Source of the DNA: Woeseiaceae bacterium
GTDB lineage: Bacteria > Pseudomonadota > Gammaproteobacteria > Steroidobacterales > Woeseiaceae
Assembly (NCBI GenBank): GCA_047620565.1
Contig: JBLHLN010000001.1
Coordinates: forward strand, 1 to 33,148
Direction: 5' to 3'
DNA: 33,148 nt
This document shows, one piece after another, positions 6,797 to 31,453 of the stretch (positions are counted from its first letter, which is position 1; each line of letters begins with the position of its first letter). A program made the translations under genes and the position numbers. A model generated the notes under the pieces. It was not told the DNA's origin, searched no databases, and worked only from the letters and a program-made list of their open reading frames with translations.

Positions 6797-6816
6797 TCTG
6801 CCGCCCAAGCCACACT

Positions 6817-8262
6817 TTAATGCCTGCATCGCGTCGGGCGCGGCTCATCCACCACGCGGAATGACATGTATTTGCGTTCCAGCCAGCTCTGAGCGGTGAA
6901 ATGTTCGTTAATAAATGCTGTCGTGCTATCGGGATCGTCGAGTTTGTAGGTGACACCTTCGACATTCACGGTGATGGGTAATGCCAGCTGCTCGCGAGAG
7001 GTGAAGTGGCGCTGAAAGTCGAACATGACGACGCCCAGTCCCTGCTTGCTGAGTTTCTGCATGGACGGGTTGCTTGCTTCTTCTACGTACAGGACTTTGT
7101 CCTGGTAAGGGAACAATGGAATCGGTTCACGAATAATATAGTGATTGGAAATTCCGCCTTCGGTGCGCAAGCCACTGAACATGGCCATCGTGCCGCCAGT
7201 TCCCAGCCCGATATACGGACTCAGGCAGTGCAGGAAAAACCAGACCGGAATCAGGTTCAGAACCAGAAGTGGCGACTTAAGACGGTAGGGTGCGTCTTCG
7301 TTGCGCATCTGCCCGTACTTGAAAACCAGGAACATCAGCGATATTGCGAATACAGCAAACAGGCTGTTGACGAGGATGCCCTGACGTGTCGTCGCGAGAT
7401 GAATGGCCAATGCTACTTGTAGCACGATAAACAAAATGGTGGCCGCGCGGAAATTCAGTTCATTCTTGAGAATGTTGGGGACCAGCGGTTCCTTGAACAT
7501 TCTCTGACCGAATCCGGACGGCAGGAACAATGTATGAAGCGCAAGCGCGAATGCTGAGAAATGCGCCAGCGTTCCGTAACCGGAAATTCCGATGAAGAAG
7601 TGAAATGACATTCCCAGCAACATGCCAAAGTACTTGCTGCGCGAGGAAAGCAAAAGGATCATCGCAATCGATTCGAGTATTAAGGTTCCGTAAATTGCCA
7701 TGTACTCGAGCCAGCCAGGTCCCAGCAGGTCCCGCAAAATCGGGAACCCGTTGACGAATGGCACGGCGCAACTCGACTCAATGCTCATAAAACCGGGATT
7801 GAGCTTATGAAACGTGCCGTAGAAGTACATGATCATCAGCAGCCAGCGTCCGATCGGGCTGAACACGGCAAACATTTCATCGACAGAGACTGACAGGGTT
7901 CGCTTCCTGATTGCCGGGTAGAGAAATGCGATCAGAATGCTCAGGTTAAGAAACAGTTCCATCACAAGGTGATCGGCGACAAATGGGTAGCGGAGAAATA
8001 TCGCAATGAGCTGGCCGATACACATTGTCATGACGGCCCAGGTTTTGGTTGGGTAACACGCAGCGATAAACGCGCTAACTATCGACAGAAAAACCAGCGG
8101 TGTTACCAGCGGGTTGTAAGTGAACCAGTAGTTGATGATGTCGGAGGACGATGAGGTGTAATGCCAGATTGCGGATACGGCGAACAGCCAGACAAAAACG
8201 GTCGCGTGGCTCGGCGCAGAGGAGCTGGTGTCCAGTGGACTACTGTCTGAGTTGGATGTCAT
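6817..8262 (-). CDS. Polytopic membrane protein, possibly HTTM / vitamin-K gamma-carboxylase-like, with a ~130-aa soluble C-terminal domain
   Basis: About 10 hydrophobic helices are visible. Motifs such as FVADHLVMELFLNLSIL and YFYGTFHKLNPGF are reminiscent of HTTM domains. It lies immediately upstream of a DCC-family gene, a pairing often seen for HTTM proteins. The family assignment is tentative. Confidence 0.4.
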   Translation of the reverse strand: MTSNSDSSPLDTSSSAPSHATVFVWLFAVSAIWHYTSSSSDIINYWFTYNPLVTPLVFLSIVSAFIAACYPTKTWAVMTMCIGQLIAIFLRYPFVADHLVMELFLNLSILIAFLYPAIRKRTLSVSVDEMFAVFSPIGRWLLMIMYFYGTFHKLNPGFMSIESSCAVPFVNGFPILRDLLGPGWLEYMAIYGTLILESIAMILLLSSRSKYFGMLLGMSFHFFIGISGYGTLAHFSAFALALHTLFLPSGFGQRMFKEPLVPNILKNELNFRAATILFIVLQVALAIHLATTRQGILVNSLFAVFAISLMFLVFKYGQMRNEDAPYRLKSPLLVLNLIPVWFFLHCLSPYIGLGTGGTMAMFSGLRTEGGISNHYIIREPIPLFPYQDKVLYVEEASNPSMQKLSKQGLGVVMFDFQRHFTSREQLALPITVNVEGVTYKLDDPDSTTAFINEHFTAQSWLERKYMSFRVVDEPRPTRCRH

Positions 8263-8416: not shown

Positions 8417-9715
8417 GTGGCTGAAAAAGATCTCCGGGGAAATCTAAAAGTGAGTATTTTTGATATCGGTGCGTTTCTAATCGGTCTGTCGGCGTTGTTC
8501 GGCTATGTAAATCATCGCTTTCTCAAACTGCCGCATACGATCGGACTCGTGGTGATCGCCCTTGCTGCGTCGCTCGCATTGATACTGATTGAACTACTCA
8601 GCCCAAACACGCAGCTGCTGGAGACAGTAACCGGCGTGCTGCAGCAAATCGATTTTCACGAGGCTGTGATGCACGGCATGCTGAGTTTTCTCTTGTTTGC
8701 CGGCGCCATGCATGTGGATTTCTCGGTTTTCAAATCGCGTTTGCTGGCAATCGGTCTGATGGCGACCCTGGGTATTCTGATTTCCACATTTGTCATTGGT
8801 TGGGCGACCTGGCAATTGCTGAATTATTTCGATATCGAGACGCCATTTATCTGGGCCCTGGTTTTCGGTGCACTAATCAGTCCTACCGATCCTGTCGCTG
8901 TGCTCGGCTTGTTTAAGACGGTTAAAGTACCCGAGTCTCTTGAAGCAAAGATGGCTGGTGAGTCCTTGTTGAACGACGGTGTAGGCGTCGTGGTATTTAC
9001 GGTCGTCGTTGCGATTGCTGTTGGCGGCGGTGAACACGGGGCAGAAATGAATGCGCTCGTAGTGACCGAGCTTTTTTTCCTTGAGGCGGTCGGCGGTGCT
9101 GTCCTCGGTTTGATCGCGGGCTACGCCGGATATCGAGCCATGTACCATATCGACGAACACAACCTTGAAGTGATGATTACGCTCGCCATGGTGATGGTCA
9201 CCTATGCCTTAGCCATTCAGCTACATATGAGCGGTCCGATCGCCATGGTTGTAGCAGGGTTGTTCATTGGCAACCGCGGCATGAAATTCGCGGTCAGCGA
9301 AAAATCGGCAGATTATATTCGCAAGTTCTGGTCATTACTGGATGAGATTCTAAACTCTGTTCTGTTTCTGCTCATTGGACTGGAAGTTCTGATCATCGCC
9401 AAAAAAGTCGACCATCTTGAGGTCGCGATACTCGCAATACCGTTGACGCTCGCCGCGCGCTGGGTGGCGGTGTATATACCAATTACGATTCTTTCGCCTT
9501 GGCGGACGTTCACCAAGGGCGCTATACCTATCCTGACGTGGGGTGGTCTTCGTGGTGGTATAGCGGTTGCGCTGGCACTGTCATTGCCGAATAACGAATA
9601 CAAACCGACTATCCTCACCATTACCTATGCTGTTGTTTTGTTTTCGATCATCGTGCAGGGCCTGACGATCAAGCCGTTGGTGGAACGACTGGTGACCCGG
9701 GGTAGTGTCGAGTAG
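8417..9715 (+). CDS. Cation:proton antiporter (CPA1, NhaP-type Na+/H+ exchanger)
   Basis: The product has 11-12 TM helices. The motif FGALISPTDPVAVL, together with ESLLNDGVGVVVF and LTWGGLRGGIAVALALSLP, is characteristic of NhaP/CPA1 exchangers. The start is GTG at 8417; an alternative GTG lies at about 8450. Confidence 0.8.
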   Translation: MAEKDLRGNLKVSIFDIGAFLIGLSALFGYVNHRFLKLPHTIGLVVIALAASLALILIELLSPNTQLLETVTGVLQQIDFHEAVMHGMLSFLLFAGAMHVDFSVFKSRLLAIGLMATLGILISTFVIGWATWQLLNYFDIETPFIWALVFGALISPTDPVAVLGLFKTVKVPESLEAKMAGESLLNDGVGVVVFTVVVAIAVGGGEHGAEMNALVVTELFFLEAVGGAVLGLIAGYAGYRAMYHIDEHNLEVMITLAMVMVTYALAIQLHMSGPIAMVVAGLFIGNRGMKFAVSEKSADYIRKFWSLLDEILNSVLFLLIGLEVLIIAKKVDHLEVAILAIPLTLAARWVAVYIPITILSPWRTFTKGAIPILTWGGLRGGIAVALALSLPNNEYKPTILTITYAVVLFSIIVQGLTIKPLVERLVTRGSVE

Positions 9716-9739
9716 GACTGAGCTACGCTGATGGCCTGA

Positions 9740-10342
9740 TCAGAATGCGATGCGCAGAAATTCATGCAGGTCATCCCGGGCCATTTTTTGCTGATCCCAG
9801 AGTTGAAACTCCTGCGGGAAAACACCGGACGACTGTAATCGAAGGTCGGTCGCTTCAGCGATCAGCCTGATCTGATCCACGGTAACCTCATAGTAGGCAT
9901 CTACTGCCGATGCGACCGGTTTGAGATATGCGGGCTCACTTAAACCGATGGAATCCGGCGTCCAGCCGATGACATTCAGCGATAGCGGCTCACCATCCGC
10001 AAAAATTAAAATCGACTCAAAGGCATTGCGATGCTCGGAGATTTCGGTAACCCGCATCGTGCTCCAGATTCCGACCCAGAGATAATATCGAAGACTTCCA
10101 ATGCGATTAACCTGGATCGGACCCATATTTACCAGGTTCCTCGCGTAGGCGGCCTTGGCCCAGTTTTCCCGATAGAGAATGAGGGGTGCTTCGACAAATG
10201 TAACAGTCACGCCTGTCAGTGGATCGAGTTTCTCATTGCTGATTGACGGAGACGTTCCGCAGCTGATCAGCCCCAGCAGAAAAAATATTGCTGCGCCTCG
10301 GCAAGCCGATTGGCATGAGAGAAGCAGGTCGCGAGCCGGCAT
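9740..10342 (-). CDS. Lipoprotein of unknown function, last gene of the multihaem operon
   Basis: The lipobox is FFLLGLIS-C-GTSPS. The ATG shares 1 nt with the stop of the upstream gene (TGATG at 10342), implying translational coupling. I recognise no family. Confidence 0.7.
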   Translation of the reverse strand: MPARDLLLSCQSACRGAAIFFLLGLISCGTSPSISNEKLDPLTGVTVTFVEAPLILYRENWAKAAYARNLVNMGPIQVNRIGSLRYYLWVGIWSTMRVTEISEHRNAFESILIFADGEPLSLNVIGWTPDSIGLSEPAYLKPVASAVDAYYEVTVDQIRLIAEATDLRLQSSGVFPQEFQLWDQQKMARDDLHEFLRIAF

Positions 10343-12855
10343 CAGAAAAAAGCCTGGTAACCAAGATTAATAAAGTAGGATTCTCGATCGAGATTTACGA
10401 TATTCGTTTGACGCTCGACAAATTGCTTGCCAACTTCAAGCTCCATGCGAAATTTTCGACTCCATCGTAATTGCATGCGCAGGCCCGGTGTATAGATCCA
10501 TTCGTAGTCTATCTCTCCGAGTCTCTTCCGACGGTCCACGCGCAGTCGCGGATTAATACGGAATTTTTCCCCGAATGGCATACGGGTATCAAGGCTTGCG
10601 GATATGACTTCTGCCGTGTCAGATGTTGAATATCGCAGACCGATAATAGACACATCTCCCTCTTTCAGGAGGCTGCTGGCAGTCAGGTTGGCTGAATAGT
10701 ACTCGTAGCTGGTCTTCTGTGTCGCCTCGACGCCACCTGACGCGGGCGTTCCATCCACGTCAGTCTGATTAACATCTGCACTGATTTGCAGCCTCGGCGT
10801 AAGCGAATGTGAAACGCCAAGAGAAAACGTGGTGGCAATTGAGGTGCGATCGATTCCTAACTGGCGGAGCTCGTCTTCACTGAAAATCACTGCCAACTCG
10901 GCAAAGGAAGCAACTGGTTGCCCGATAATGGCATTGCCCGTGCTCAGGAACGGACTGCGTCGTCGATCCAATGAGCCATGCAGGGTCAGACGATTTGCAA
11001 AACGCCAGCTCCCATGCAAATAGGCGCTGCCAATTTCCTTAAACAACGTGTCGTAATCGAGCATGCCCCAAAGACTCTGATTTGCGCCGAAATAGCGAAA
11101 TTCCGCACCGATAGCCTGTCTATCGTCGATGCCTTCAATATCCTGTTGAACGTAGAACATGCCCAGTTCCAGATCCTCCAGAATGGGACCATAGGTGACG
11201 CTGGCGCCATAGAATTTCCTCTCCGAGTTGATGCCAGCCGAGGATGAATTGACCGGCATGCCCATCACTGCATTCACCAGAACGCGGTCACTGGCCTGGT
11301 AGCCAAGATTGAGTCCGTCGAAGCGTCCCAGGACACCACCGGTATTTCTTGATTGCCTGCCCACCCTGCCGCGCAGTCCTGTTCTGACGTCAGCAAGGTC
11401 GGCGTAGGCGTAGGAGATGCGAACGTCGTTGCCTGATCCGCTTTCAGCGTCCAGGAAATCGCTGCGGTATCCCGCAGAAATTCGGCTGCTGAAGTCAAAG
11501 CGTTGTCCTCGCCGCCTGGCATCGAAATTGACGTCTGAGTAAAGCGCAGACTGGCTGATGATTTCATCCTGCGAATTCATCTGATTGACGTCACGGCGAT
11601 AATACTGCGAAAAATACGTCTGAATTCTCCAATCGCTTTGCGTCGATCTGGAGCTGCCAACCCGGGTGTCGGAAGTGGTCGTAGTACTGCTGGAGCGTCG
11701 ATCGACCGCCAGAAGCGCGGCAAGTCGTTGGTTGACCCGCGTTGCCCCGTCATCGTCAGGGTAAAGAGACAGATACTTTTGATACTCTGCTCTTGCGTGC
11801 GCCTCCTGGCCGTTCTTCTCTCTGCACAAGGCCAACAGTTCCTGTGCCTCCGGGTGCCTATCATGATTAGGCACGCGCAGAACCTTGGTATAAATCTGCA
11901 CCGCTCTTGAGTATTCTTTCGCGACCATGGCAAGTCGGGCGTCATTCATAAGAACGTCAATCTGATCCAGGCCGATCGAAGCAAATACAGTGTTGGCAGC
12001 AGTATCGGTCGGCTCTGTTACAGCCGCATCCGGACGACGTTCTGCGACAGCTGTCGTGCCATCATCAGCCCGGTCAATCCATGCAGTCGGGTACTGGTCG
12101 CGCAGTTTCAGGAGTTCCACCTGGGCCTCGGCAGTACTGTTGAAGTGACCGAGACGCAATCGATACCAGGTTGCGCCCGCCAGAACCACTTCCGTCTCAA
12201 ACACTTCGAGACCGGCCGAAATAGTGATTGCAGACATGTCGGACTCGGCATGCGGCTGGCGGCTGGATGAAAGATTGATTGCGTAGGAAAGTTGCGGCTC
12301 CGGTGGTCTCCTTACTCTTACACCGCTGGCGCCCGACTTCGCCCTGGCTTTGGCGAGCGGCTGCTCGAAGCGCAGTCTGACGGTTATGGTGTTCGAAGTA
12401 CCGCTGTGCAGCACTTCGTATTCGACCGCATCGCCAAATACGAGCGTTAGTATCTGGCCGCCGCTGCTGTTTCCATCGTAGATAATTTCCTGCAAATTTA
12501 TGAGGTCTGCCTGCAGGGGTCGGTATTGTTCGCGTGACTGAGCGGCCAGCGGCGACACACCGTTGCAGATCGTTGTGGCCTCCAGTTGAATGCGCAGCGT
12601 TTCTCCGCGGTCCACCGGGAAATGATCGATGTACTCGACGCCACAAGCCAGTTCTATCGTTACTTCCGCGAGTGCGTTGCCGCGCGTGACCTTGGAGCCG
12701 GTGATAAATCCGGGCGCGGCAAAGCCCCCCGGCGCCAGGCTTACAAGCAGCAAGCAGGCCAGGTACTTTATGAAACGAGAATTGAGAATGCTGAAATCCA
12801 ATGCGTAGCCGCTACCATTCTTTGTCACTGATTCTGTGACAGCCACTCTCAGCAC
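10342..12855 (-). CDS. Outer-membrane-type protein: N-terminal AMIN-like region + SPOR domain + TPR segment + C-terminal beta-barrel
   Basis: Residues are numbered from the GTG at 12855. The signal-like stretch is YLACLLLVSLAPGGFAAPG. A SPOR-like segment spans about aa 188-262 (YAINLSSS...ATWYRLRLGHFNSTAEAQVELLKLRDQYPTAWI). TPR-like helices span about aa 296-385. From about aa 405 there is an alternating-polarity, Y/G/S/D-rich sequence ending ...NLGYQAFF, the aromatic C-terminus typical of BAM substrates. The start is uncertain: GTG at 12855 or TTG at 12801. Confidence 0.7.
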   Translation of the reverse strand: MLRVAVTESVTKNGSGYALDFSILNSRFIKYLACLLLVSLAPGGFAAPGFITGSKVTRGNALAEVTIELACGVEYIDHFPVDRGETLRIQLEATTICNGVSPLAAQSREQYRPLQADLINLQEIIYDGNSSGGQILTLVFGDAVEYEVLHSGTSNTITVRLRFEQPLAKARAKSGASGVRVRRPPEPQLSYAINLSSSRQPHAESDMSAITISAGLEVFETEVVLAGATWYRLRLGHFNSTAEAQVELLKLRDQYPTAWIDRADDGTTAVAERRPDAAVTEPTDTAANTVFASIGLDQIDVLMNDARLAMVAKEYSRAVQIYTKVLRVPNHDRHPEAQELLALCREKNGQEAHARAEYQKYLSLYPDDDGATRVNQRLAALLAVDRRSSSTTTTSDTRVGSSRSTQSDWRIQTYFSQYYRRDVNQMNSQDEIISQSALYSDVNFDARRRGQRFDFSSRISAGYRSDFLDAESGSGNDVRISYAYADLADVRTGLRGRVGRQSRNTGGVLGRFDGLNLGYQASDRVLVNAVMGMPVNSSSAGINSERKFYGASVTYGPILEDLELGMFYVQQDIEGIDDRQAIGAEFRYFGANQSLWGMLDYDTLFKEIGSAYLHGSWRFANRLTLHGSLDRRRSPFLSTGNAIIGQPVASFAELAVIFSEDELRQLGIDRTSIATTFSLGVSHSLTPRLQISADVNQTDVDGTPASGGVEATQKTSYEYYSANLTASSLLKEGDVSIIGLRYSTSDTAEVISASLDTRMPFGEKFRINPRLRVDRRKRLGEIDYEWIYTPGLRMQLRWSRKFRMELEVGKQFVERQTNIVNLDRESYFINLGYQAFF

Positions 12856-15487
12856 AATTCTGGTCGTTGCTCAGACCTCGGTGGTCATCTTCGCCTGCCT
12901 TGTAGTCTCTCGCATGACAACCGGCGCAGTTTGGTCGGTAACCGGGTGACGACCAGTTGACGTTCTCCGAGTTATTCTGGTGGCACTCGGTGCATTGAAA
13001 GTTGCCACGATGGTCTTGCGGTTCATATGGCAACGTAACGTGACGGTAATCGGCCGGTGTCCAGCCATTGGTGATATGGCAGGTATCGCATTGCTGGTTC
13101 GTGGCAAAGTGATTCGTGTTCTGCCCGATCGCCGCAACGCCGTTGTGGCAGGACGTACATGAGCCCAGCACCTGGCTGTGATCAACAGTCAACACAGGCG
13201 CAAACACATTCGTCGTATGGCAGTCTTCACAGATGTTTGTCGTTTGCACGTGCGTCAGATTCTTGCCGGTCGCGTCGGTACCGTTATGACAACTGACACA
13301 GTTGCCAGTGATGTTCGCATGGTCGAAATTCGCGGGCAGCCAGGCAACCGTGCTGTGGCAATCATCACAATTGTTGCCACTGGCAATATGCGTCGGATGT
13401 TTACCTGTCGCTGTGACGCCGTCGTGACAGGAACCACAAGCGCCAAGCACCTGGGTATGATCGACTATCGTCACAGGCACAAATACGTTGGTGTTATGGC
13501 AGTCTTCACAAACATTCGTCGTCTGTGGATGGGCAGGGTTCTTGCCCGTAGCATCTGCGCCGTTGTGGCAATTGACGCAATTTCCGGTAATCGTCGCGTG
13601 GTCAAATGTCGCGGGCAACCAACCGGCCGTGGTGTGACAATCATCACAGGTGTCACCACTCGCGATGTGCGTTGGGTGTTTGCCGATGGCAACAACGCCG
13701 TCATGGCACGAATCACAAGTGCCTATTACCTGCGTGTGATCAACGGTCATTACCGGTGCGAAAATGTTGGTTGTATGACAATCTTCACAGACATTGGAGG
13801 TCTGGATGTGGGTCGGATTCTTGCCGGTGGCATCCGTACCGTTGTGACAACTGACACAATTGCCGGTGATGTTCAGGTGATCGAAATTGGCGGGTAACCA
13901 GCCAACCGTGCTGTGGCAGTCATCGCAATTGCTGCCGCTGTCAATATGGGTCGGATTCTTGCCTGTTGCGGTGACACCATCGTGACAGGCGCTGCACGAA
14001 CCAATAACCTGGTTGTGGTCAACGGTTATCACCGGTGCAAAGACGTTACTGCTGTGACAGTCCTCGCAAACGTCTGTCGTTTGTACGTGTGTTGGATTCT
14101 TGCCGGTGGCATCTGTGCCGTTATGGCAGCTGACACAATTACCGATGATATTCGCATGGTCGAAATTTGCGGGCAACCAGGCAACCGTGCTGTGGCAATT
14201 GTCACAGGTGTTGCCACTGGCAATATGCGTGGGGTGTTTGCCGGTGGCATCTGTGCCGTTGTGGCAGGAACCGCAACTTCCCAGGACCTGGGTGTGATCC
14301 ACGGTTACTGCAGGCACAAACATATTCGTGCTGTGGCAGTCTTCGCAAACATTGGTCGTTTGCACGTGCGTCGGGCCTCTGCCGATGGCGTCCGTACCGT
14401 TATGGCATGAGCCGCAGGTTCCCAGCACCTGCGTGTGATCAACGGTCGATACTGGAGCAAATGCAACTGTTGAATGACAGTCTTCGCAAACATTCGTTGT
14501 TTGCACATGCATCGGATTCTTGCCCGTCGCGTCTGTGCCGTTATGGCAGCTACTGCAATTGTCCGTAATGTTCGCATGATCAAACTTGGCAGGTAGCCAG
14601 CCAACCGTCGTATGACAATCGTCGCAAGTGTCGCCGCTGGCAATATGCGTGGCATGCTTGCCGGTGGCAATAACGCCATCGTGGCAGGAGCCGCAACTGC
14701 CAATTACCTGCGTATGATCTACGTTAGTTGGCGGCACCCAAATCGTGGGGCTATGGCAGTCCTCGCAGATATTGGTCGACTGAATATGAGTTGCATCTTT
14801 GCCGGTCGCCTCGATGCCGTTATGGCAGCTGACGCAATTGCCGAGAATATTTACATGATCAAAATTCGCCGGTACCCAGCCAAAAGTCGTATGGCAATTG
14901 TCGCAGGTGTCGCCGCTGGTAATGTGCGTTGCGTTCTTGCCAGTAGCGCTGACGCCATTGTGGCAACCAACGCAGTTACCAACGACTCCACTATGGTCGA
15001 ATACGGCCGGTAACCAGCCGGTCGTACTGTGGCAATCGTCACACTGATCGCCGGAGGAGATGTGGCCTGGAGTTTTTCCAGTCGCCTGAAAGCCGTTATG
15101 GCAGCCAAAACAACTCCCCGTGAGTGATGAATGGTCAACAAACGCCACCGGAACCCACGACGACGTTGTGTGACAGTCCGAGCAGATACCGTTCGTTGCT
15201 ATGTGATCTGGAGATTTCGCAGACGCGCGAACGAGCCCACCGGGAGAGTGACAGTTTACGCATGCCTGCTGCGTCGTACCGAATGTCGCGCTAACGTGAC
15301 ACCCTTCACAGGTCACATTGGCATGAGCGCCATCAAGTACAAAACCGGTGCTGAAATGATCAAAGGGCTGCTGCGCAAAAGCATTTGATTGCAACAACAA
15401 CATGCCCAATAGTGCGATCACGAGCAGACCGATCCAATAATGTGTGCTGTCCTTAGCACCCCTTGCAAAACGCTTCGAGAATTTCAT
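12812..15487 (-). CDS. Giant multihaem c-type cytochrome (35 CxxCH + 1 CxxxxCH), paired-CXXCH repeat type
   Basis: I count 35 CxxCH motifs plus NCAESGCH in the translation. The signal is MKFSKRFARGAKDSTHYWIGLLVIALLGMLLLQSNAFA-QQ. The preferred ATG at 15487 forms an ATGA overlap with the upstream stop (15484-15486). Each ~23-24-aa unit carries exactly one further His, consistent with bis-His ligation. Confidence 0.9.
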   Translation of the reverse strand: MKFSKRFARGAKDSTHYWIGLLVIALLGMLLLQSNAFAQQPFDHFSTGFVLDGAHANVTCEGCHVSATFGTTQQACVNCHSPGGLVRASAKSPDHIATNGICSDCHTTSSWVPVAFVDHSSLTGSCFGCHNGFQATGKTPGHISSGDQCDDCHSTTGWLPAVFDHSGVVGNCVGCHNGVSATGKNATHITSGDTCDNCHTTFGWVPANFDHVNILGNCVSCHNGIEATGKDATHIQSTNICEDCHSPTIWVPPTNVDHTQVIGSCGSCHDGVIATGKHATHIASGDTCDDCHTTVGWLPAKFDHANITDNCSSCHNGTDATGKNPMHVQTTNVCEDCHSTVAFAPVSTVDHTQVLGTCGSCHNGTDAIGRGPTHVQTTNVCEDCHSTNMFVPAVTVDHTQVLGSCGSCHNGTDATGKHPTHIASGNTCDNCHSTVAWLPANFDHANIIGNCVSCHNGTDATGKNPTHVQTTDVCEDCHSSNVFAPVITVDHNQVIGSCSACHDGVTATGKNPTHIDSGSNCDDCHSTVGWLPANFDHLNITGNCVSCHNGTDATGKNPTHIQTSNVCEDCHTTNIFAPVMTVDHTQVIGTCDSCHDGVVAIGKHPTHIASGDTCDDCHTTAGWLPATFDHATITGNCVNCHNGADATGKNPAHPQTTNVCEDCHNTNVFVPVTIVDHTQVLGACGSCHDGVTATGKHPTHIASGNNCDDCHSTVAWLPANFDHANITGNCVSCHNGTDATGKNLTHVQTTNICEDCHTTNVFAPVLTVDHSQVLGSCTSCHNGVAAIGQNTNHFATNQQCDTCHITNGWTPADYRHVTLPYEPQDHRGNFQCTECHQNNSENVNWSSPGYRPNCAGCHARDYKAGEDDHRGLSNDQNCAESGCHRISDKEW

Positions 15488-17052
15488 TGCAATGACCTCA
15501 CTTCCGTGAAGGAATTTTCTGTGTGGCAACGGCTACAATCCTGGCCAAATTCACTATCGTGGACATCGTCAGCGCGATGACAATCCACGCAGCTGCTACC
15601 TAGCCTGTGCATCGATGCCAGGGAGGTTCGATGGCAGTCGTCACACGCAACCTCTACATGTGCGCCTTCGAGTATGAATTCTGTACGAGTGTCGTGATCG
15701 AACAGCCACAAGTCCCAGGCGACCGGGTTATGACAATCGCCACATTGTTCCTCAAAGCGGTTTTCGTGGACATCGTCTTCCAGGTGGCAATCGATACATT
15801 GATTATTTGTGCCAACAAACACCTGGCTTTCATGGCAGGAGTCGCACTCGAGGTTGTCGTGTTCACCAAGCAGCGGGAATTTCGTAATGTCGTGATCAAA
15901 AAATGGTGCTTCCTGCCAGCTCTCTTCCGTGTGGCAATCATTACACTGATCGCCCTGCTTGCCGCCGTGCGGCTCGTCCTCCAGGTGGCAGGAGGCACAG
16001 AATGTTTCAGGCGATGTGTCAAAAATCGGTTCAACGTGACAGTCGACACACGCGACCGTTTCGTGAGATCCGTGCAATTCGAAATCGGTGTCGATGTTGT
16101 GCAGGAAGTGTATGTCCGGCCACTTGTCGTTGGTATGGCAACCTGCACAGTCGGTGCCGTTATGGCCATCGTGGTCATCATCGTCCACGTGGCATCCTGC
16201 GCAAGTCGTATCGAGCTCATCAGCAAACGGATCGTCACTGTGGCAATCATCGCAGATCAGCAGCGTGTGACTGCCCTCGAGCAGGAAGTCGGTATCGCGC
16301 GCATGGTCGAAGCTGGTGTCAGTCCAGTCAACCGGGTTATGACATTTTTCGCATTGCTCACCGCTGCGACCGTCGTGAGCGTCATCAGCTGCGTGACAGC
16401 CGAAGCATGTGTCCTCCGTGAAGGCGAAAGACTTGTCCTCGTGACAGTCGCCACAGGCTACGTCAACGTGATTGCCAACCAATGGATAGTCAGTTGTGTC
16501 ATGGTCAAAAGTGACCTCGAGCCAGTCCGTTTCGTTGTGACAGCCCGCGCATTCCGTACCAATACTCTCATCGTGAATGTTGTCCTCACGATGGCAATCG
16601 ATGCATTCTTGTGGCGCGTCGCGACGCTTGTCCGATGGCTCATGGCATCCGGCGCACTCGGCTTCGGCATGTTTGCCGACTAGTTCGTAGTCAGTAAATG
16701 CATGATCGAAATCCGACTCATCCAGTACGATGATGTTGGCGTTCCGTCCTTCGTGATCTGTATGGCAAGAGAAACATTCAGCGGAGCTTGCCTCGGCGAA
16801 TTTGCCGTGAAATCCCGATTCACTATTGATGTCGCCTTTAACATCTTCGTGACAGTCGGCACAAAGCGTGGATTGCTCCGCGCGATCAAAGCGCTTGTGA
16901 CAGGAGGTGCAATCCGCCTCCAGTTCCGCATGCCCCAGGATGAGTTCCCCGGGCATTACGAGGGATTCGACGTTCTGAGCGACAGATGGCTGGCTATGAA
17001 TGCAGGCCATCATGATCAATGCTCCAGTTAGTACGAATGTCCATCGTTTCAT
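15484..17052 (-). CDS. 21-haem c-type cytochrome built from seven trihaem (cytochrome c7/c3-like) modules
   Basis: There are 21 CxxCH motifs with a repeating spacing pattern of C..CH-(11-13)-C..CH-(13)-C..CH-(~27-29). Each module also has three extra conserved His (FDH, G.H, D.H). The preferred ATG at 17052 gives MKRWTFVLTGALIMMACIHSQPSVAQ, which is a signal peptide or a possible atypical lipobox MMAC. Confidence 0.9.
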   Translation of the reverse strand: MKRWTFVLTGALIMMACIHSQPSVAQNVESLVMPGELILGHAELEADCTSCHKRFDRAEQSTLCADCHEDVKGDINSESGFHGKFAEASSAECFSCHTDHEGRNANIIVLDESDFDHAFTDYELVGKHAEAECAGCHEPSDKRRDAPQECIDCHREDNIHDESIGTECAGCHNETDWLEVTFDHDTTDYPLVGNHVDVACGDCHEDKSFAFTEDTCFGCHAADDAHDGRSGEQCEKCHNPVDWTDTSFDHARDTDFLLEGSHTLLICDDCHSDDPFADELDTTCAGCHVDDDDHDGHNGTDCAGCHTNDKWPDIHFLHNIDTDFELHGSHETVACVDCHVEPIFDTSPETFCASCHLEDEPHGGKQGDQCNDCHTEESWQEAPFFDHDITKFPLLGEHDNLECDSCHESQVFVGTNNQCIDCHLEDDVHENRFEEQCGDCHNPVAWDLWLFDHDTRTEFILEGAHVEVACDDCHRTSLASMHRLGSSCVDCHRADDVHDSEFGQDCSRCHTENSFTEVRSLQ

Positions 17053-17065
17053 CCCGTTAAACCAA

Positions 17066-17974
17066 TTAGTACATGTGCACTGCAAGTACATGTAACAAGG
17101 CGGAAATAATCATCATGAAAAAAAGCGGCAAATGCAGAACATGCCAAATAGAAAGAAATTTCTCGTACAACGTGAATTGAGCGACATTGCTCATCTGATG
17201 CACAAATTTTCGTATGTACAAAGAGGTGGATTTCTTCAGGCGCGGCAGGTCTCGGTCAATTGTCGGAGACTCAGCGGCGCGCTCCTTCAATTCCCGGTTC
17301 GCTGCCCGTGATAATGAAAACCAAAGCGTATAGCGACGAATTTTCCACTTCAGGCTTGCGCTGCTTTTTATCGTTCGGGTAAATTGATCGCCCTGGACTT
17401 CCGCGGAAACTGCTTCCAGTCGCTTTGTCAGGCCCGGCAACAGGTTCGCGAAACCGCTGTTTGCTTCAAGTGAGTTCTGCAGATCATTACGTAATTCGTT
17501 CAGGCTGGTTTTCCGACCGTACAGGCCCCTGTGTACATGAGCATAAATGTGCCTCCCGACAATACCGCTGCCGGCGACAAGCAACATGCAGTAAAGGGCG
17601 ACCTTGCTATTAAATGAGCCAAGTCGAAAATTGGAGTGGTACAAAATCAATAGCGGCCCGAGCAGGCCGAGTATCATATGAATGCGGAACCAGCCGCTTG
17701 TGGTGCCAAGAAATCCGAAGGCCTTTAGTCGCTTTCGTAGCGGATATAACAGCAGCACCAACATCATTGAGCCACCAATGATACCGAGCCAATAGCCAAC
17801 ACCGTATTCGGCGTCGATGAAGCCGTAGTCCCGCAGCAACCAGCCGATACCGATGGCGATCGTTAATAGCGTGTAACTGTAAAAAGTACTGCTTTGCCGG
17901 GTTTCCCTGGTGCCGAACAAACGTTCGCGGAAATTGCCGGACGCAAAAGCCGTGTCGAGGGTCGTTTCATTCAT
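17066..17974 (-). CDS. 5-TM His-rich inner-membrane protein with two Hx13H motifs (candidate dihaem b-type electron-transfer subunit)
   Basis: Residues are numbered on the 319-aa track ORF. TM3 (FRIHMILGLLGPLLILYH) has H116 and H130 separated by 13 residues. The C-terminal TM (WHVLHLPLFFMMIISALLHVLAVH) has H298 and H312, also separated by 13. A ~120-aa amphipathic soluble insert lies between TM4 and TM5. The preferred ATG at 17974 (MNETTLD) overlaps the upstream gene by 8 nt. I recognise no named family. Confidence 0.6.
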   Translation of the reverse strand: MNETTLDTAFASGNFRERLFGTRETRQSSTFYSYTLLTIAIGIGWLLRDYGFIDAEYGVGYWLGIIGGSMMLVLLLYPLRKRLKAFGFLGTTSGWFRIHMILGLLGPLLILYHSNFRLGSFNSKVALYCMLLVAGSGIVGRHIYAHVHRGLYGRKTSLNELRNDLQNSLEANSGFANLLPGLTKRLEAVSAEVQGDQFTRTIKSSASLKWKIRRYTLWFSLSRAANRELKERAAESPTIDRDLPRLKKSTSLYIRKFVHQMSNVAQFTLYEKFLSIWHVLHLPLFFMMIISALLHVLAVHMY

Positions 17975-18791
17975 TGACCGACCCCTCGCCAGCGCCGGTA
18001 ATAAGCAATTCGACAAGGTCGCCATTGGCCGGGACTATCGGCGCCGATGTGACCTCGAAACTATTTAGCGTATCGCCGGCATTTCCGGAGCGAGACACCT
18101 TTGCCGTTACGACCAGTTGCGCGTAATCCGACATGCTGGTTCCGGGTACCATTGCCTGCTCATCCGATAGTTCAAACTCCAGCGGCAGATCGGCAACCGA
18201 CTTGCGCAAGGCAGCAACCGGCATTCGCTGTTCAACCGACTCTTTGGCGAAGATAAAAATCGTATCGCTCATTTGCACCTGCACGGCGACCTCGGGGGAT
18301 AAGGACAAGCGTCCACGAATTCCAGTACTCGCAGGACTGCTCGCGACATTGTCGTCGTCACTCGAGCCGTATAGTGATTTCTCCAGTTCAGGGTGCGACT
18401 GGCCGAGCGAGGTAGCTTTTTCGTAGGCGGCGATCGCTTCCTTTTTTTGCCCGAGATGGTCATAAGAGCGCGCAAGCAGTAACCAGCCAGCGCCATCGTC
18501 CGGCTGTTTTTGCAGACGTGCCTTCAGTCCATCAATAAGGCTGTCAACCGTTGGAACTCCGTCGCTGCTTTTCGTGCTGACCGGGTTCTGATGTTGTGCA
18601 CGAGGCTCTTCGGTTATGGCTGCCGGTGTGCCCAGCGCTACGTAGAGGCCGACAGCAGTTATCGGCACCAGTACAGCGAGCAGAAATCGGGGGGATCGGA
18701 GCAGGCGTTTTGCCGGCCCAAGCGGGAGCGCAACGATCATGATCGCTGCTACCAGCATCATAATGATCATCCCCCAGAAAAAGTACGACAT
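17967..18791 (-). CDS. ccmI: CcmI/CycH-like c-type cytochrome biogenesis (apocytochrome chaperone) protein, stand-alone copy
   Basis: Two N-terminal TM helices flank a basic loop (IMIVALPLGPAKRLLRSPRFLLAVLVPITAVGLYV). A TPR segment follows (GAGWLLLARSYDHLGQKKEAIAAYEKATSLG). The C-terminal domain is CcmI-type (IRGRLSLSPEVA...TIFIFAKES...RMPVAALRKSVADLPLEFELSDEQAMVPG...VVTAKVSRSGNAGDTL). Confidence 0.7.
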   Translation of the reverse strand: MSYFFWGMIIMMLVAAIMIVALPLGPAKRLLRSPRFLLAVLVPITAVGLYVALGTPAAITEEPRAQHQNPVSTKSSDGVPTVDSLIDGLKARLQKQPDDGAGWLLLARSYDHLGQKKEAIAAYEKATSLGQSHPELEKSLYGSSDDDNVASSPASTGIRGRLSLSPEVAVQVQMSDTIFIFAKESVEQRMPVAALRKSVADLPLEFELSDEQAMVPGTSMSDYAQLVVTAKVSRSGNAGDTLNSFEVTSAPIVPANGDLVELLITGAGEGSVNE

Positions 18792-19180
18792 ATGTTTCTT
18801 CCTAACAGCTAAAATCCGGCCGCATTCTACTTATGTTCACCAGAACTGCCAGCGTATTTCCGCAACTCGTTGTGAACCGGTTCGCAAACGTGATTGAGCA
18901 CTCTTTAGTACACGAAAACTACGCAAATTAGGTTCCACTAATTCACAAAAAATCTAAAAAAAACAAATACCTGTCGCTTTTTGCAGACAAAGCGAGATGG
19001 AATGAGAATCACTTGCATTGGAAGGATGTTTTTTGCCAAATTTGCATCAGTTTGTCGCTCGTATTGCTCGCTTTGCTTTTGCCGGAAATAGTCAAATTTG
19101 CGTAGCGTGAACTGATTGATGAACGAGCGGAAAACTCCCGGTATGCTCTGGCCGAACAGAAATATGCCAGCGGACTAATT

Positions 19181-20500
19181 GTGAGCGGATCCTTACTTAA
19201 CTACCTGTACCTGATACCAGTAATCATCCTGGTGGGCTGGTACATGCGTCGCCACTCAAACCTTGAAAAGCGCAGTCTGGAAGCGTTACGGATCGCTACT
19301 GAAGCCGGCATGCTGGAGCCGCCAACGCTGCATCCCGAGATTGACCTGAATACCTGCATAGGCTGCAAATCCTGTGTTGCTGCCTGTCCGGAACAGGACT
19401 CGCACGTGGTGCTTGGCATGATCGGAAAAAAAGCGCGCCTCGTCGGGCCGTCTGATTGCATCGGTCATGGTGCCTGCAAAACAGCATGCCCGGTCGGCGC
19501 AATTAAGCTTGTATTCGGTACCGCCACGCGCGGCGTGGATATCCCGGTCGTCAAACCAAATTTCGAGACGGACGTTCCAGGCATTTTCATTGCCGGCGAA
19601 CTCGGCGGCATGGGACTGATTCGAAATGCGATCGAGCAGGGTAGACAAGCAATGCAGTCGATCAGTGAACTGCTGAAGAAGAAACACAATAACGATCATG
19701 ACATCGTTATCGTTGGCGCGGGTCCGGCAGGCTTTTCAGCGTCCCTGGGTGCGAAAGCGGCGAACATGAAGTGCGTGACCATTGAGCAGGAAACACTCGG
19801 CGGCACTGTTGCGCATTTTCCGCGACGAAAACTGGTTATGACGCAGCCGGCGGAATTACCGATAGTGGGCAAGGTTTCCTTTAAGGAAGTGCAGAAAGAA
19901 GACTTAATGGAATTTTGGCAGAAGGTTGAGAAAGACACCGCTGTCGAAATCAATTACAACGAGCGGGTTGAGTCGGTGCAGCCGGTATCGGGCGGCACCG
20001 GTTACCTGGTAGAAACCAATCGCGGCAAATACAACACGCGGACATTACTCCTGACGATCGGGCGGCGAGGTACGCCGCGTACCCTTGGCGTGCCCGGTGA
20101 AGAGTTGCCAAAAGTTGCGTATCGGCTCATCGATCCCGAGCAATACAAAGACCAGCATGTGCTGGTCGTTGGCGGCGGTGATAGTGCGCTCGAAGCTGCG
20201 ACCAGCATTGCAGAGGAGCACGGGACAACCGTTACACTCTCATATCGTTCTGGCGCTTTTGCTCGAGCCAAACAGAAAAATCGCGAAAAGATCGAGGCCA
20301 TGCAGGGAGCCGGAAGACTGCGCGTGTTGCTGAATTCCAATGTAAAAGAAATAACAGAGGATGCAGTAACCATTGCTCTTGAAGATACTGAGGAGACCAT
20401 CGAGAATAATTTTGTGATCGTTTCTGCCGGCGGCATCCTGCCAACGAAGTTCTTGCAAAGTATCGGCATCATCGTGGAAACAAAATGGGGCAATGAGTAG
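19181..20500 (+). CDS. Membrane-anchored 2x[4Fe-4S] ferredoxin domain fused to an FAD/NAD(P)H oxidoreductase (thioredoxin-reductase-like fold)
   Basis: GTG start. The N-terminal TM helix is LLNYLYLIPVIILVGWYM. The two cluster motifs are CIGCKSCVAACP and CIGHGACKTACP. The dinucleotide motifs are IVIVGAGPAGFSA and VLVVGGGDSALEAA. A GD-type FAD motif (VPGIFIAGELGGMGLIRNAIEQGRQA) lies before rather than after the Rossmann motifs. Confidence 0.8.
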   Translation: MSGSLLNYLYLIPVIILVGWYMRRHSNLEKRSLEALRIATEAGMLEPPTLHPEIDLNTCIGCKSCVAACPEQDSHVVLGMIGKKARLVGPSDCIGHGACKTACPVGAIKLVFGTATRGVDIPVVKPNFETDVPGIFIAGELGGMGLIRNAIEQGRQAMQSISELLKKKHNNDHDIVIVGAGPAGFSASLGAKAANMKCVTIEQETLGGTVAHFPRRKLVMTQPAELPIVGKVSFKEVQKEDLMEFWQKVEKDTAVEINYNERVESVQPVSGGTGYLVETNRGKYNTRTLLLTIGRRGTPRTLGVPGEELPKVAYRLIDPEQYKDQHVLVVGGGDSALEAATSIAEEHGTTVTLSYRSGAFARAKQKNREKIEAMQGAGRLRVLLNSNVKEITEDAVTIALEDTEETIENNFVIVSAGGILPTKFLQSIGIIVETKWGNE

Positions 20501-28786: not shown

Positions 28787-28817
28787 ATTCGAACCTCTAA
28801 AAAATTCTATTACTCGA

Positions 28818-31190: not shown

Positions 31191-31453
31191 CCAGCTCCCC
31201 CCGGGCAGCGGCTGTTGTACGACCCCCAATAATACAACGGTTTTGCGCCTTTGAAGCTCAGTATTCGCCCATATTGACAGCGCAATCTCGGAAGCCGTGA
31301 CAAATCGCCTGAATCTGGCGACTAGCTCGGCGCTGCCGCGGATATCGAGTCATCCTGATCAGGGTCGCATGGCCTGTCGGAGCCATCCGGCAGGTATGAC
31401 CTTGCGGTATAGTGCTGCCCATCGTGATCTAACGCCGCCAAGAAGAATTCATT

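What the first reader, a model, noticed from the sequence alone, without database searches (positions are those of the whole stretch)
12812..15487. 35-haem cytochrome with one haem per ~25 residues, built from a four-haem ~93-aa super-repeat
The translation has 35 CxxCH motifs in 891 aa. The central part iterates four ~23-24-aa units. The units are C(G/S/D)SCH(D/N)G..A.GK.P.THI.SG.., CD(D/N)CH.T.(G/A)WLPA.FDH..I.GN, CV(S/N)CHNG.DATGKNP.H.QT..V, and CEDCH..N.F.PV..VDH.QV.G.. One irregular two-haem insertion occurs near motifs 14-15. Each unit has exactly one extra His, so an all-bis-His, closely stacked haem rod is expected. That makes this a periplasm-spanning or extracellular 'wire' candidate. 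At DNA level the repeats are clearly diverged. Comparing 13218-13500 with 13501-13780 shows many third-position differences. The array is therefore old and/or shaped against recombination, not a recent amplification or assembly artefact.
Basis: seen in the sequence. Interest (0 to 1): 0.78.

Follow-up and report, generated by a model that had tools for sequence, protein, structure and literature searches.

The report
Giant 36-haem PCC3 outer cytochrome
This gene encodes a real 35-36-haem "molecular wire" cytochrome, the large variable subunit of a PCC3 porin-cytochrome gene cluster that was described from genomes in 2017 but never tested experimentally, here in a marine-sediment Woeseiaceae-like bacterium.

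Summary
The minus-strand ORF 12812-15487 (891 aa) has 35 CxxCH motifs. It also has a conserved C-terminal CX4CH, so 36 haem sites are likely. The core is six 93-aa four-haem super-repeats plus one two-haem half repeat. The repeats are old: nucleotide identity is 65-78%, third codon positions are near saturation, and dN is 0.09-0.25.

The gene is not an orphan. It lies in a tight operon that matches the published PCC3 porin-cytochrome cluster of He et al. 2017:
- an inner-membrane protein with two Wx3Hx13H motifs and SGxxG;
- a 21-haem cytochrome;
- this large cytochrome;
- an outer-membrane barrel protein.

In 41 complete related clusters, mostly from Woeseiaceae MAGs, the 21-haem partner is constant. 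The large cytochrome ranges from 9 to 75 haem sites, and 33 of 41 totals are multiples of four. Orthologues differ by clean 46/47-, 93- or 279-aa indels.

I also found conserved partners that the PCC3 papers I read do not mention: a divergent FeS-flavoprotein, a CcmI-like chaperone and a lipoprotein.

PCC3 function, location and direction of electron flow remain untested. Verdict: new member of a known but uncharacterised kind; moderate interest.

The parts
12812..15487 (-). Gene for the large multihaem cytochrome (891 aa; 35 CxxCH + 1 CX4CH). This is the PCC3 'extracellular' MHC.
   Evidence: ORF. Motif count. Pfam Cytochrome_C7 in 18 stretches, and NCBIfam nanowire_3heme 77 bits against a cut-off of 40. 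Orthologues at 62-76% BLASTP identity in Woeseiaceae PCC3 clusters.
15374..15487 (-). Sec-type signal peptide (aa 1-38, ...SNAFA|QQPFDH). No lipobox.
   Evidence: Read from the sequence. The AF2 model has a helix at aa 16-31. The N-terminal FDHxxTGFxLDGAH module is conserved in orthologues. The cleavage site is inferred.
14975..15373 (-). Non-repeat N-terminal five-haem module (aa 39-171, haem motifs 1-5).
   Evidence: Unit listing. Conserved at orthologue N-termini.
13160..14974 (-). Repeat array: six 93-aa four-haem super-repeats (unit types A-B-C-D), aa 172-776.
   Evidence: TRF period 279 nt. Repeat alignment A4. dN/dS. Unit pattern.
14276..14416 (-). 47-aa two-haem half repeat (C-D units, motifs 14-15) inserted in the array.
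   Evidence: Indels of 46/47 aa of the same kind separate orthologues.
12812..13159 (-). Conserved non-repeat C-terminal module (aa 777-891), ending ...CHRISDKEW.
   Evidence: C-terminal comparison across orthologues.
12836..12856 (-). CAESGCH (aa 878-884): atypical CX4CH, probable 36th haem-binding site.
   Evidence: Conserved as CX3CH or CX4CH in 39 of 41 orthologues. Present in the consensus of alignment A2.
15484..17091 (-). 21-haem cytochrome (7 x tri-haem c7-type modules, very acidic). This is the PCC3 'periplasmic' MHC. Its stop overlaps the start of the large MHC gene by 4 nt.
   Evidence: 21 CxxCH. Motif spacing 17/18/33. Exactly 21 haems in all 41 complete clusters and in almost all other loci where the ORF is intact. 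tblastn match in 78 of 79 loci.
17066..17974 (-). PCC3 inner-membrane protein (302 aa): five hydrophobic segments, two Wx3Hx13H motifs and SGxxG. Proposed di-haem b protein.
   Evidence: Motifs. Hydropathy. Homologues are 302 aa at 62-93% identity. The diagnostic motifs are defined in He et al. 2017.
17967..18791 (-). CcmI/CycH-like protein (two N-terminal TM segments, TPR, Ig_CycH). Probable apocytochrome chaperone and first gene of the operon.
   Evidence: Pfam PF23892 and PF23914. Conserved upstream on the same strand in 67 of 79 loci.
10342..12855 (-). Outer-membrane protein: periplasmic beta-sandwich + SPOR + TPR, then a 22-strand beta-barrel ending ...GYQAFF. The true start is probably TTG at 12801.
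   Evidence: Pfam SPOR and TPR. AF2 mean pLDDT 79, barrel blocks mostly pLDDT 80-95. Foldseek matches porins and usher pores at E 1e-9. Start codon.
9740..10342 (-). 200-aa lipoprotein (lipobox LISC) of unknown function. Last gene of the operon.
   Evidence: Sequence. Conserved downstream of the barrel gene in 53 loci. No Pfam hit.
19181..20500 (+). Divergently transcribed membrane-anchored FeS-flavoprotein: N-terminal TM, 2x[4Fe-4S] ferredoxin domain, TrxR/FNR/YpdA-like FAD/NAD(P)H domain.
   Evidence: Pfam and NCBIfam. PDB sequence hits to YpdA/Bdr, TrxR, FNR and PsaC. Present on the opposite strand next to the cluster in 77 of 79 loci. Also present in the Aquabacterium locus L081 and in L082.

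Best explanation
The gene encodes the large, length-variable multihaem c-type cytochrome of a PCC3-type porin-cytochrome complex.

Shown here:
- It is a Sec-exported protein with 35 canonical haem sites and one atypical site, about 25 residues per haem.
- It has conserved end modules flanking an array of four-haem, 93-aa super-repeats.
- It is co-operonic with a CcmI-like chaperone, a PCC3-type inner-membrane protein, an invariant 21-haem cytochrome, a 22-strand outer-membrane barrel with SPOR/TPR periplasmic domains, and a lipoprotein.
- A conserved FeS-flavoprotein gene is transcribed divergently.

Inferred mechanism:
- All haems are bis-His ligated and form one continuous chain. By analogy with MtrA (10 haems, about 8-10 nm) and GSU1996 (12 haems, about 12 nm), the chain would be roughly 30-35 nm long.
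- The constant 21-haem protein bridges the periplasm from the inner-membrane protein to the barrel.
- The variable protein takes over at or through the barrel and extends from the cell surface. It would carry electrons between the cell and insoluble or distant partners such as Fe/Mn minerals or other cells.
- Reach is tuned over evolutionary time by gain and loss of two- and four-haem modules.

The direction of electron flow is not determined. The NAD(P)H-type FeS-flavoprotein next to a NOX/FRD-like membrane protein makes outward flow (reduction of extracellular acceptors) somewhat more likely.
For: Motifs, repeats and selection.

Conserved distal His in a 90-sequence alignment.

The cluster matches the published PCC3 definition:
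- IMP motifs Wx3Hx13H (twice) and SGxxG, with five hydrophobic segments;
- a 21-haem partner, equal to the published median;
- a barrel protein;
- about 25 aa per haem and a T/G/N/S-rich composition, as described for PCC3 extracellular MHCs.

The Riftia-symbiont PCC3 in He et al.'s supplement has 21 and 39 haems at 26 aa per haem. That equals the modal type among my loci.

Synteny holds in 79 loci, 41 of them complete. The 21-haem protein is constant while the large MHC has 9-74 CxxCH.

Length changes are whole-module indels. The window differs from its closest genome relative L003 by one 279-aa gap, with 80% identity elsewhere. Other pairs differ by 46/47/93/94 aa.

The super-repeat aligns in register with MtrA haem motifs, and more weakly with GSU1996.

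An Aquabacterium PCC3 cluster has the same layout plus ccmA-I.
Against: - No experiment exists for any PCC3 protein.
- In Sideroxydans ES-1 the clusters were down-regulated on Fe(II), and the 'extracellular' cytochrome was not detected in proteomes.
- Extracellular location rests on PSORTb/CELLO predictions in the literature and on my length-variability argument.
- The protein has a plain Sec signal, no lipobox and no recognisable surface-sorting signal. No secretion system is encoded in the window.
- The AF2 model is of moderate confidence (pLDDT 68.7, pTM 0.30) and Foldseek found no significant analogue, so rod geometry is inferred, not shown.
- Similarity to MtrA is weak (E about 1e-3). The NCBIfam DmsE-family score is below its cut-off (151.8 against 192.2).
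- I could not compare directly with the reference Slit_0867-0870 sequences.
Confidence: 0.72

Rival explanations
1. The large cytochrome stays in the periplasm. There it would act as an electron store (capacitor) or as a lateral periplasmic wire, not as an extracellular extension.
For: It has a plain Sec signal peptide with no lipobox or surface-sorting signal. No type II secretion genes lie in the window. Hoover et al. raise a capacitor role for many-haem PCC3 proteins. The ES-1 homologue was undetected in whole-cell proteomes, so no localisation data exist.
Against: Its length ranges from 9 to 75 haem sites among relatives, whereas the partner is fixed at 21. A component constrained by periplasm width should not vary eight-fold. 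It is always encoded immediately before the outer-membrane barrel gene. Published predictions place it outside the cell.
Confidence: 0.2
2. It is a catalytic multihaem enzyme, of the hydroxylamine/nitrite/sulfite/tetrathionate oxidoreductase type, and not a wire.
For: Some multihaem families are enzymes. One atypical CX4CH site exists at the C-terminus.
Against: There is no CxxCK motif and no non-cytochrome domain. Every repeat unit keeps a conserved distal His, so no open coordination site is evident. No enzyme family was hit in Pfam or NCBIfam above its cut-off. At 25 aa per haem there is no room for a substrate pocket.
Confidence: 0.03
3. It is a subunit that polymerises into micrometre-long OmcS/OmcE/OmcZ-like cytochrome filaments.
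For: It is a predicted extracellular multihaem protein in a sediment bacterium. This is a general analogy only.
Against: There is no sequence or fold similarity to OmcS, OmcE or OmcZ in the PDB searches. Those filament subunits are short, about 4-8 haems (established knowledge). Here length is encoded within one chain, and it varies by module number.
Confidence: 0.04
4. The repeat number is an assembly artefact, or the ORF is a decaying pseudogene.
For: It is a repetitive gene from a metagenome assembly.
Against: The longest exact internal repeat is only 23 nt. A second contig is identical over the gene. The frame is intact. dN is 0.09-0.25, while third codon positions are only 34-54% identical. 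An independent MAG (L002) also has 35+1 sites.
Confidence: 0.01

Closest known systems
PCC3 'extracellular' multihaem cytochrome (He et al. 2017, Front Microbiol 8:1584; e.g. Sideroxydans lithotrophicus Slit_0868/Slit_1448, the Riftia pachyptila endosymbiont 39-haem protein; Hoover et al. 2023)
   Same: - Same gene neighbourhood: IMP, 21-haem MHC, large MHC, barrel protein.
- Same diagnostic IMP motifs.
- Same aa-per-haem ratio of about 25-26.
- Same T/S/A/G-rich, low-complexity, repeat-rich sequence.
- The haem count lies within the published range (median 34; 10-35 in Gallionellaceae; up to 85).
   Different: - It comes from a Woeseiaceae-like marine-sediment lineage, which the PCC3 main texts I searched and the held text of He et al.'s supplements do not mention.
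- The best hit in the protein database is only 48% identical; the closest proteins I translated from genome loci reach 74-76%.
- The barrel has 22 strands plus a beta-sandwich/SPOR/TPR periplasmic extension, not the 40 strands predicted for the Riftia symbiont.
- The four-haem super-repeat, the conserved terminal CX3/4CH and the extra conserved genes were not mentioned in the PCC3 main texts I searched.
MtrA/MtoA/DmsE decahaem cytochromes of MtrCAB-type porin-cytochrome complexes (PDB 6R2Q)
   Same: An elongated, all-c-type haem chain with little secondary structure. Encoded next to an outer-membrane barrel gene. The 93-aa super-repeat aligns in register with four MtrA haem motifs. The NCBIfam DmsE-family model matches aa 54-272.
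   Different: - 36 sites against 10.
- The DmsE score is below the family cut-off (151.8 against 192.2).
- The architecture is internally repeated.
- The barrel partner has 22 predicted strands plus periplasmic domains and showed no specific match to MtrB.
- The system has a second giant cytochrome and a dedicated inner-membrane protein, not CymA.
Geobacter c7-type polymer ('nanowire') cytochromes GSU1996, GSU0592 and GSU2210 (PDB 3OV0/3OUE)
   Same: A single polypeptide made of tandem small haem modules that form a linear chain about 1 nm per haem. Pfam Cytochrome_C7 and NCBIfam nanowire_3heme hits. Weak profile hits to 3OUE and 3OV0.
   Different: - Those proteins use tri-haem modules in which one haem per domain is His-Met ligated (established knowledge). 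The adjacent 21-haem gene (7 x 3 haems) resembles that layout more closely.
- The protein studied here uses a two/four-haem module and has no Met at any repeat-conserved position.
- Those proteins are periplasmic and are not encoded with a barrel protein.
OmcS/OmcE/OmcZ cytochrome filaments
   Same: The proposed role: long-range extracellular electron transfer along stacked haems.
   Different: Filaments are homopolymers of subunits with about 4-8 haems. Here the length is covalent, within one chain. No sequence or fold similarity was detected.

Membership tests
PCC3 porin-cytochrome cluster (He et al. 2017) | An MHC gene adjacent to a gene for an outer-membrane beta-barrel ('porin'). | tested here: met
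   The ORF 10342-12855 lies directly downstream. AF2 predicts a 22-strand C-terminal barrel with blocks mostly at pLDDT 80-95. Foldseek matches porins and usher pores at E about 1e-9. The protein ends in Phe (...GYQAFF).
PCC3 porin-cytochrome cluster (He et al. 2017) | A second, 'periplasmic' MHC with about 21-27 haems in the same cluster. | tested here: met
   The ORF 15484-17091 has 21 CxxCH, the published median. The count is constant across related loci.
PCC3 porin-cytochrome cluster (He et al. 2017) | A conserved ~300-aa inner-membrane protein with five TM helices, SGxxG on TM4 and Wx3Hx13H on TM3 and TM5. | tested here: met
   The protein is 302 aa. In the numbering of the 319-aa ORF (start 18025), Wx3Hx13H lies at aa 112 and 294 and SGIVG at aa 153. 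It has five hydrophobic segments. TM assignment is by hydropathy only. There is no Pfam FRD hit.
PCC3 porin-cytochrome cluster (He et al. 2017) | A large MHC with very many haem sites, a low aa-per-haem ratio (about 25-30), and a repeat-rich sequence rich in small residues. | tested here: met
   It has 35+1 sites in 891 aa, about 25 aa per haem. The mature protein is T 12%, G 9%, N 8% and S 7%. Repeats are shown.
PCC3 porin-cytochrome cluster (He et al. 2017) | Sequence homology to the reference PCC3 proteins (S. lithotrophicus Slit_0867-0870, L. cholodnii, Riftia symbiont). | not tested
Indirect support comes from homologues in Aquabacterium, a genus He et al. list as PCC3-bearing. Those sit in a cluster with the same layout and a 24-haem partner, as in L. 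cholodnii.
PCC3 porin-cytochrome cluster (He et al. 2017) | Extracellular location of the large MHC and electron transfer across the outer membrane. | not testable with these tools
   Only predictions exist. There are no functional data for any PCC3.
DmsE/MtrA family decahaem cytochromes (TIGR03508) | A score above the curated family cut-off, and ten haems. | tested here: not met
   The score is 151.8 bits against a cut-off of 192.2, and there are 36 sites, not 10. The resemblance is at module level only.
c7-type tri-haem 'nanowire' domain proteins (TIGR04257 / Pfam PF14522) | A domain model hit above its cut-off. | tested here: met
   TIGR04257 scores 77.3 bits against a cut-off of 40. PF14522 scores 185 bits in 18 stretches. 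This is a domain-level classification. The repeat period here is two or four haems, not three.

The most novel reading that the evidence does not exclude
PCC3 would be a complete, quinone-independent electron circuit. The steps would be:
- the conserved membrane-anchored FeS-flavoprotein (NAD(P)H side);
- the NOX/FRD-like di-haem-b inner-membrane protein;
- a fixed 21-haem periplasmic bridge;
- the SPOR-anchored barrel;
- a covalent, single-chain extracellular nanowire.

The reach of that nanowire, from about 16 to 76 haems (roughly 15-70 nm), would be tuned in steps of four haems by repeat gain and loss. That would make it a genetically length-adjustable monomeric nanowire in one of the most abundant bacterial groups of marine sediments.
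Probability: 0.15. Interest if true: 0.8.

Novelty: new member of a known kind. Interest (0 to 1): 0.45.

Why it matters
Woeseiaceae are described as cosmopolitan, abundant core members of marine sediment communities (established knowledge). PCC3-type clusters with this layout turned up in dozens of their MAGs. If the complex works as proposed, it would be a widespread and so far untested route for electron exchange with Fe/Mn minerals or with partner cells.

Existing annotation may file these genes under 'mtrCAB', because the DmsE-family model hits them below its cut-off.

The family also gives a natural series of single-chain haem wires from 16 to 76 haems, built from one four-haem module on a constant 21-haem partner. 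That series is useful for testing how electron-transfer range scales with haem number, and for protein-wire engineering.

The conserved FeS-flavoprotein and CcmI-like genes suggest specific, testable partners that the published four-gene PCC3 model lacks.

Tried and rejected
- **AF2 of the full protein.** I used a 90-sequence alignment and got mean pLDDT 68.7 and pTM 0.30. Foldseek against the PDB found nothing significant; the best hit was E=5 (OcwA, PpcD). Haem-free models of proteins with almost no secondary structure are not searchable this way, and I had no access to coordinates to measure length.
- **PDB sequence search.** The whole protein hit only MtrA (6r2q_A) at E 6e-4. No close relative of this protein family appears among PDB sequences.
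- **Inner-membrane protein.** It gave no Pfam hit at E up to 0.1 and no meaningful PDB sequence hit. The ferric-reductase-domain analogy from the literature therefore rests on motifs only.
- **Promoter and terminator scan of 9500-19400.** It found fewer sites than in shuffles, so it says nothing about operon limits. The operon is inferred from overlapping or abutting genes.
- **Assembly-collapse artefact.** Rejected.
- **Catalytic enzyme reading.** Rejected: no CxxCK motif, no open-site signature and no extra domain.
- **Literature.** I searched for any PCC3 structure or functional test up to 2026 and found none.
- **Not run.** I did not use the search of protein representatives, the viral fold library or the RNA tools, because none bears on the question.
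Full report

Yes. The gene is on the minus strand at 12812-15487 (ATG start, 891 aa; an upstream TTG at 15529 is an alternative start). Translation gives exactly 35 CxxCH motifs. Spacing runs 23/23/23/24 residues through the core. From the protein's own Cys/His-rich composition I estimate about 0.5 motifs by chance, which is my arithmetic.

Tandem Repeats Finder reports a 279-nt period with 4.6 copies at 71% matches, at 13137-14407. By hand I resolve six 93-aa super-repeats (aa 172-264, 265-357, 405-497, 498-590, 591-683, 684-776).

**2. Age of the repeats and the artefact question**

Between super-repeats, amino-acid identity is 65-85% and nucleotide identity 65-78%. Third codon positions are only 34-54% identical. 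NG86 dN is 0.09-0.25, and dS is above 1.6 or not computable because of saturation. The copies are therefore old and under purifying selection.

The longest exact internal repeat in the gene is 23 nt. A second metagenome contig (L001, JGI 3300053785) is identical over the whole gene. Collapse or expansion during assembly is very unlikely.

**3. Corrections to the observation**

- A CX4CH motif (CAESGCH, aa 878-884) lies in the conserved C-terminal module. It is present as CX3CH or CX4CH in 39 of 41 orthologues and in the consensus of a 90-sequence alignment. The likely number of haem sites is therefore 36.
- 'Exactly one extra His per unit' is approximate. GKHxTH units have two extra His, and unit 1 has none of its own. 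There are 41 non-motif His for 36 sites. One His per unit is invariant or nearly so across homologues, and none of the five Met lies at a repeat-conserved position. All-bis-His ligation is a reasonable inference, not a demonstration.

**4. What it is**

Pfam scores the protein as Cytochrome_C7 (18 stretches), Cytochrom_c3_2 and Paired_CXXCH_1. NCBIfam gives the c7-type 'nanowire_3heme' domain above its cut-off, and the DmsE/MtrA decahaem family below its cut-off.

The neighbours are decisive. All lie on the minus strand and overlap or abut one another:

| Coordinates | Product |
|---|---|
| 17967-18791 | CcmI/CycH-like TPR+Ig protein |
| 17066-17974 | 302-aa membrane protein |
| 15484-17091 | 21-haem cytochrome |
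| 12812-15487 | the 35/36-haem gene |
| 10342-12855 | 819-837-aa SPOR/TPR protein |
| 9740-10342 | 200-aa lipoprotein |

He et al. 2017 (PMC5566968) defined 'PCC3' as a four-part cluster:
- a porin;
- an 'extracellular' MHC (median 34 haem sites);
- a 'periplasmic' MHC (median 21);
- a ~300-aa inner-membrane protein with five TM helices, SGxxG, and two Wx3Hx13H motifs.

The window's membrane protein has Wx3Hx13H twice, SGIVG, and five hydrophobic segments. The partner cytochrome has exactly 21 CxxCH, arranged as 7 tri-haem modules.

The AF2 model of the SPOR/TPR protein has mean pLDDT 79. It gives an N-terminal beta-sandwich, a SPOR domain, TPR helices, and a 22-strand C-terminal barrel with blocks mostly at pLDDT 80-95. 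The barrel matches porins and usher pores in Foldseek at E about 1e-9.

The mature 36-haem protein is T/G/N/S-rich at about 25 aa per haem, as described for PCC3 extracellular MHCs. He et al.'s supplement lists a Riftia-endosymbiont PCC3 with 21 and 39 haems and 26 aa per haem. The finding is thus the large MHC of a complete PCC3 cluster.

**5. Relatives**

The protein search found 2975 hits at E<1e-10. All were 'hypothetical' or 'cytochrome c3 family' proteins of 650-1550 aa with 17-58 CxxCH, and the best was 48% identical.

The inner-membrane protein is far better conserved, at 62-93% identity. I used an alignment of it to fetch 79 loci from GTDB species genomes. Nearly all are Woeseiaceae or unclassified Gammaproteobacteria MAGs. 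The window probably comes from a Woeseiaceae-like sediment bacterium.

The closest genome relatives are L003 (uncultured Woeseiaceae) and L002:

| Locus | Barrel identity | 21-haem identity | Large MHC identity |
|---|---|---|---|
| L003 | 76% | 70% | 76% |
| L002 | 58% | 60% | 74% |

**6. Family-level pattern**

In 41 complete clusters the 'periplasmic' MHC always has 21 haems and the barrel protein is 706-923 aa. The large MHC has 9, 15, 19, 23, 27, 29, 31, 33, 35, 37, 39, 47, 51, 53 or 74 CxxCH. Counting the terminal CX3/4CH, 33 of 41 totals are multiples of four (16, 20, 24... 52), as is the window at 36. Six more are 4n+2.

Global pairwise alignments show that orthologues differ by clean module indels. 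The window against L003 shows one 279-aa gap (three super-repeats, 12 haems), with about 80% identity elsewhere. Other pairs differ by 46/47-, 93- or 94-aa gaps. The same 279-nt period is present in L003 and L040, at 79-81% matches over 7.5 copies.

These loci are phylogenetically related, so the counts are not independent observations.

**7. Conserved partners beyond the published four genes**

By tblastn across the 79 loci:
- The FeS-flavoprotein gene (window 19181-20500, + strand) is present on the opposite strand next to the cluster in 77.
- The CcmI-like gene is present in 67.
- The lipoprotein gene is present in 53. The barrel gene is detected in 61.

The flavoprotein has an N-terminal TM helix, a PsaC-like 2x[4Fe-4S] domain, and a TrxR/FNR/YpdA-like FAD/NAD(P)H domain.

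The same divergent gene flanks a betaproteobacterial PCC3 in an Aquabacterium MAG. That cluster has an IMP with both motifs, a 24-haem MHC, a 46+1-haem MHC and a TPR barrel protein, followed by ccmABCDEFGHI. A third genome, L082, shows it too.

He et al.'s main text does not mention FAD, ferredoxin, CcmH or SPOR in connection with PCC3. The passages I read in later papers describe PCC3 as the same four components.

**8. How it most likely works**

Shown here:
- a Sec-exported protein with 36 haem sites;
- conserved end modules flanking a modular array;
- obligate co-occurrence with the IMP, the 21-haem MHC and the barrel.

Inferred:
- The haems form one continuous bis-His chain of roughly 30-35 nm. 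This scales from MtrA (10 haems, about 8-10 nm) and GSU1996 (12 haems, about 12 nm), which is established knowledge.
- The profile of the super-repeat aligns in register with four MtrA haem motifs at E 1.2e-3, and more weakly with GSU1996.
- The invariant 21-haem protein is the natural periplasm-spanning element, as others have suggested.
- The eight-fold length variability of the large MHC argues that it is not constrained by periplasm width and lies outside the cell, attached at or through the barrel.
- The SPOR and TPR domains plausibly anchor the barrel to peptidoglycan and dock the periplasmic wire.

Direction of flow is open. The NAD(P)H-type FeS-flavoprotein beside a NOX/FRD-like membrane protein favours outward flow, but this is speculative.

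**9. Evidence against, and the limits**

No PCC3 protein has been characterised. In S. lithotrophicus ES-1 both clusters were down-regulated on Fe(II), and the 'extracellular' cytochrome was undetected in proteomes. In strain CL21 expression was above the mean but did not track iron oxidation.

Localisation is prediction only. The protein lacks a lipobox or any known surface-sorting signal.

The AF2 model of the cytochrome has pLDDT 68.7 and pTM 0.30. Its Foldseek search gave nothing. No close relative of this protein appears among PDB sequences.

**10. Verdict**

The object belongs to a family already described from genomes in 2017 and revisited in 2022-2025, so it is a new member of a known but experimentally uncharacterised kind.

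The added value here is fourfold:
- assignment to a Woeseiaceae-like lineage;
- the probable 36th haem site;
- the quantised four-haem length polymorphism against a fixed 21-haem partner;
- a wider conserved gene set that suggests testable partners.

Noticed in passing
window 19181-20500 (+): A membrane-anchored 2x[4Fe-4S] + TrxR/FNR/YpdA-like flavoprotein gene is transcribed divergently from the PCC3 operon. It is conserved in that position in 77 of 79 related loci, and also in an Aquabacterium PCC3 cluster. The PCC3 papers I read do not mention it. It may be the cytoplasmic partner of the inner-membrane protein.
   Followed up: partly
window 17967-18791 (-); L081 16376-23254: A short CcmI/CycH-like protein (TPR + Ig_CycH) is the first gene of the operon in 67 of 79 loci. 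In Aquabacterium a full ccmABCDEFGHI set follows the PCC3 barrel gene. This suggests dedicated maturation machinery for the giant cytochromes.
   Followed up: partly
window 10342-12855 (-): In the AF2 model the PCC3 'porin' is a 22-strand barrel preceded by about 360 aa of periplasmic beta-sandwich, SPOR (peptidoglycan-binding) and TPR domains. The 40 transmembrane strands predicted in 2017 for the Riftia-symbiont homologue may therefore be an overcount. The annotated GTG start (12855) is probably wrong; TTG at 12801 matches the orthologues.
   Followed up: partly
window 9740-10342 (-): A 200-aa lipoprotein (lipobox LISC) with no Pfam hit is conserved immediately after the barrel gene in 53 loci. 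Its function is unknown.
   Followed up: partly
window 12812-12835 (-), C-terminus of the cytochrome: The large cytochromes end in a conserved ...CH(R/S)IS-x-x-x-(W/F) tail with a terminal or near-terminal aromatic residue. This recalls outer-membrane-protein C-terminal signals and may be a docking or export signal.
   Followed up: no
window 15484-17091 (-): The 21-haem partner is built of seven tri-haem modules (motif spacing 17/18/33). It is extremely acidic, with D+E 24% and a net charge of about -94. The 36-haem protein, by contrast, is T/G/N-rich.
   Followed up: partly
window 25437-27422 (-); L082 6427-8262: A secreted 661-aa ankyrin-repeat protein lies about 7 kb from the cluster. In genome L082 a Sel1+ankyrin protein sits inside the PCC3 neighbourhood, between the FeS-flavoprotein and an Ig_CycH gene. 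This may be coincidence.
   Followed up: no
window 27419-31229 (-): A pair of genes of the DUF1552 (HXXSHH) and DUF1585/1587/1588/1592/1595 'Planctomycete cytochrome' types. The second is 803 aa with 2 CxxCH. They are unrelated to the PCC3 operon.
   Followed up: no
window 6817-8262 (-) and 6365-6829 (-): A 481-aa membrane-like ORF with no Pfam hit overlaps the start of a DCC1-like thiol-disulfide oxidoreductase gene. tblastn did not detect either gene in the related loci.
   Followed up: no
L040 (Woeseiaceae MAG AGTU_64_bin_15), gene about 1.4 kb downstream of the IMP gene: One orthologue of the large cytochrome is 1911 aa with 74 CxxCH + 1 CX4CH, the longest in the set. L068, L072 and L076 seem to have the cluster split or duplicated, with extra multihaem genes.
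   Followed up: no
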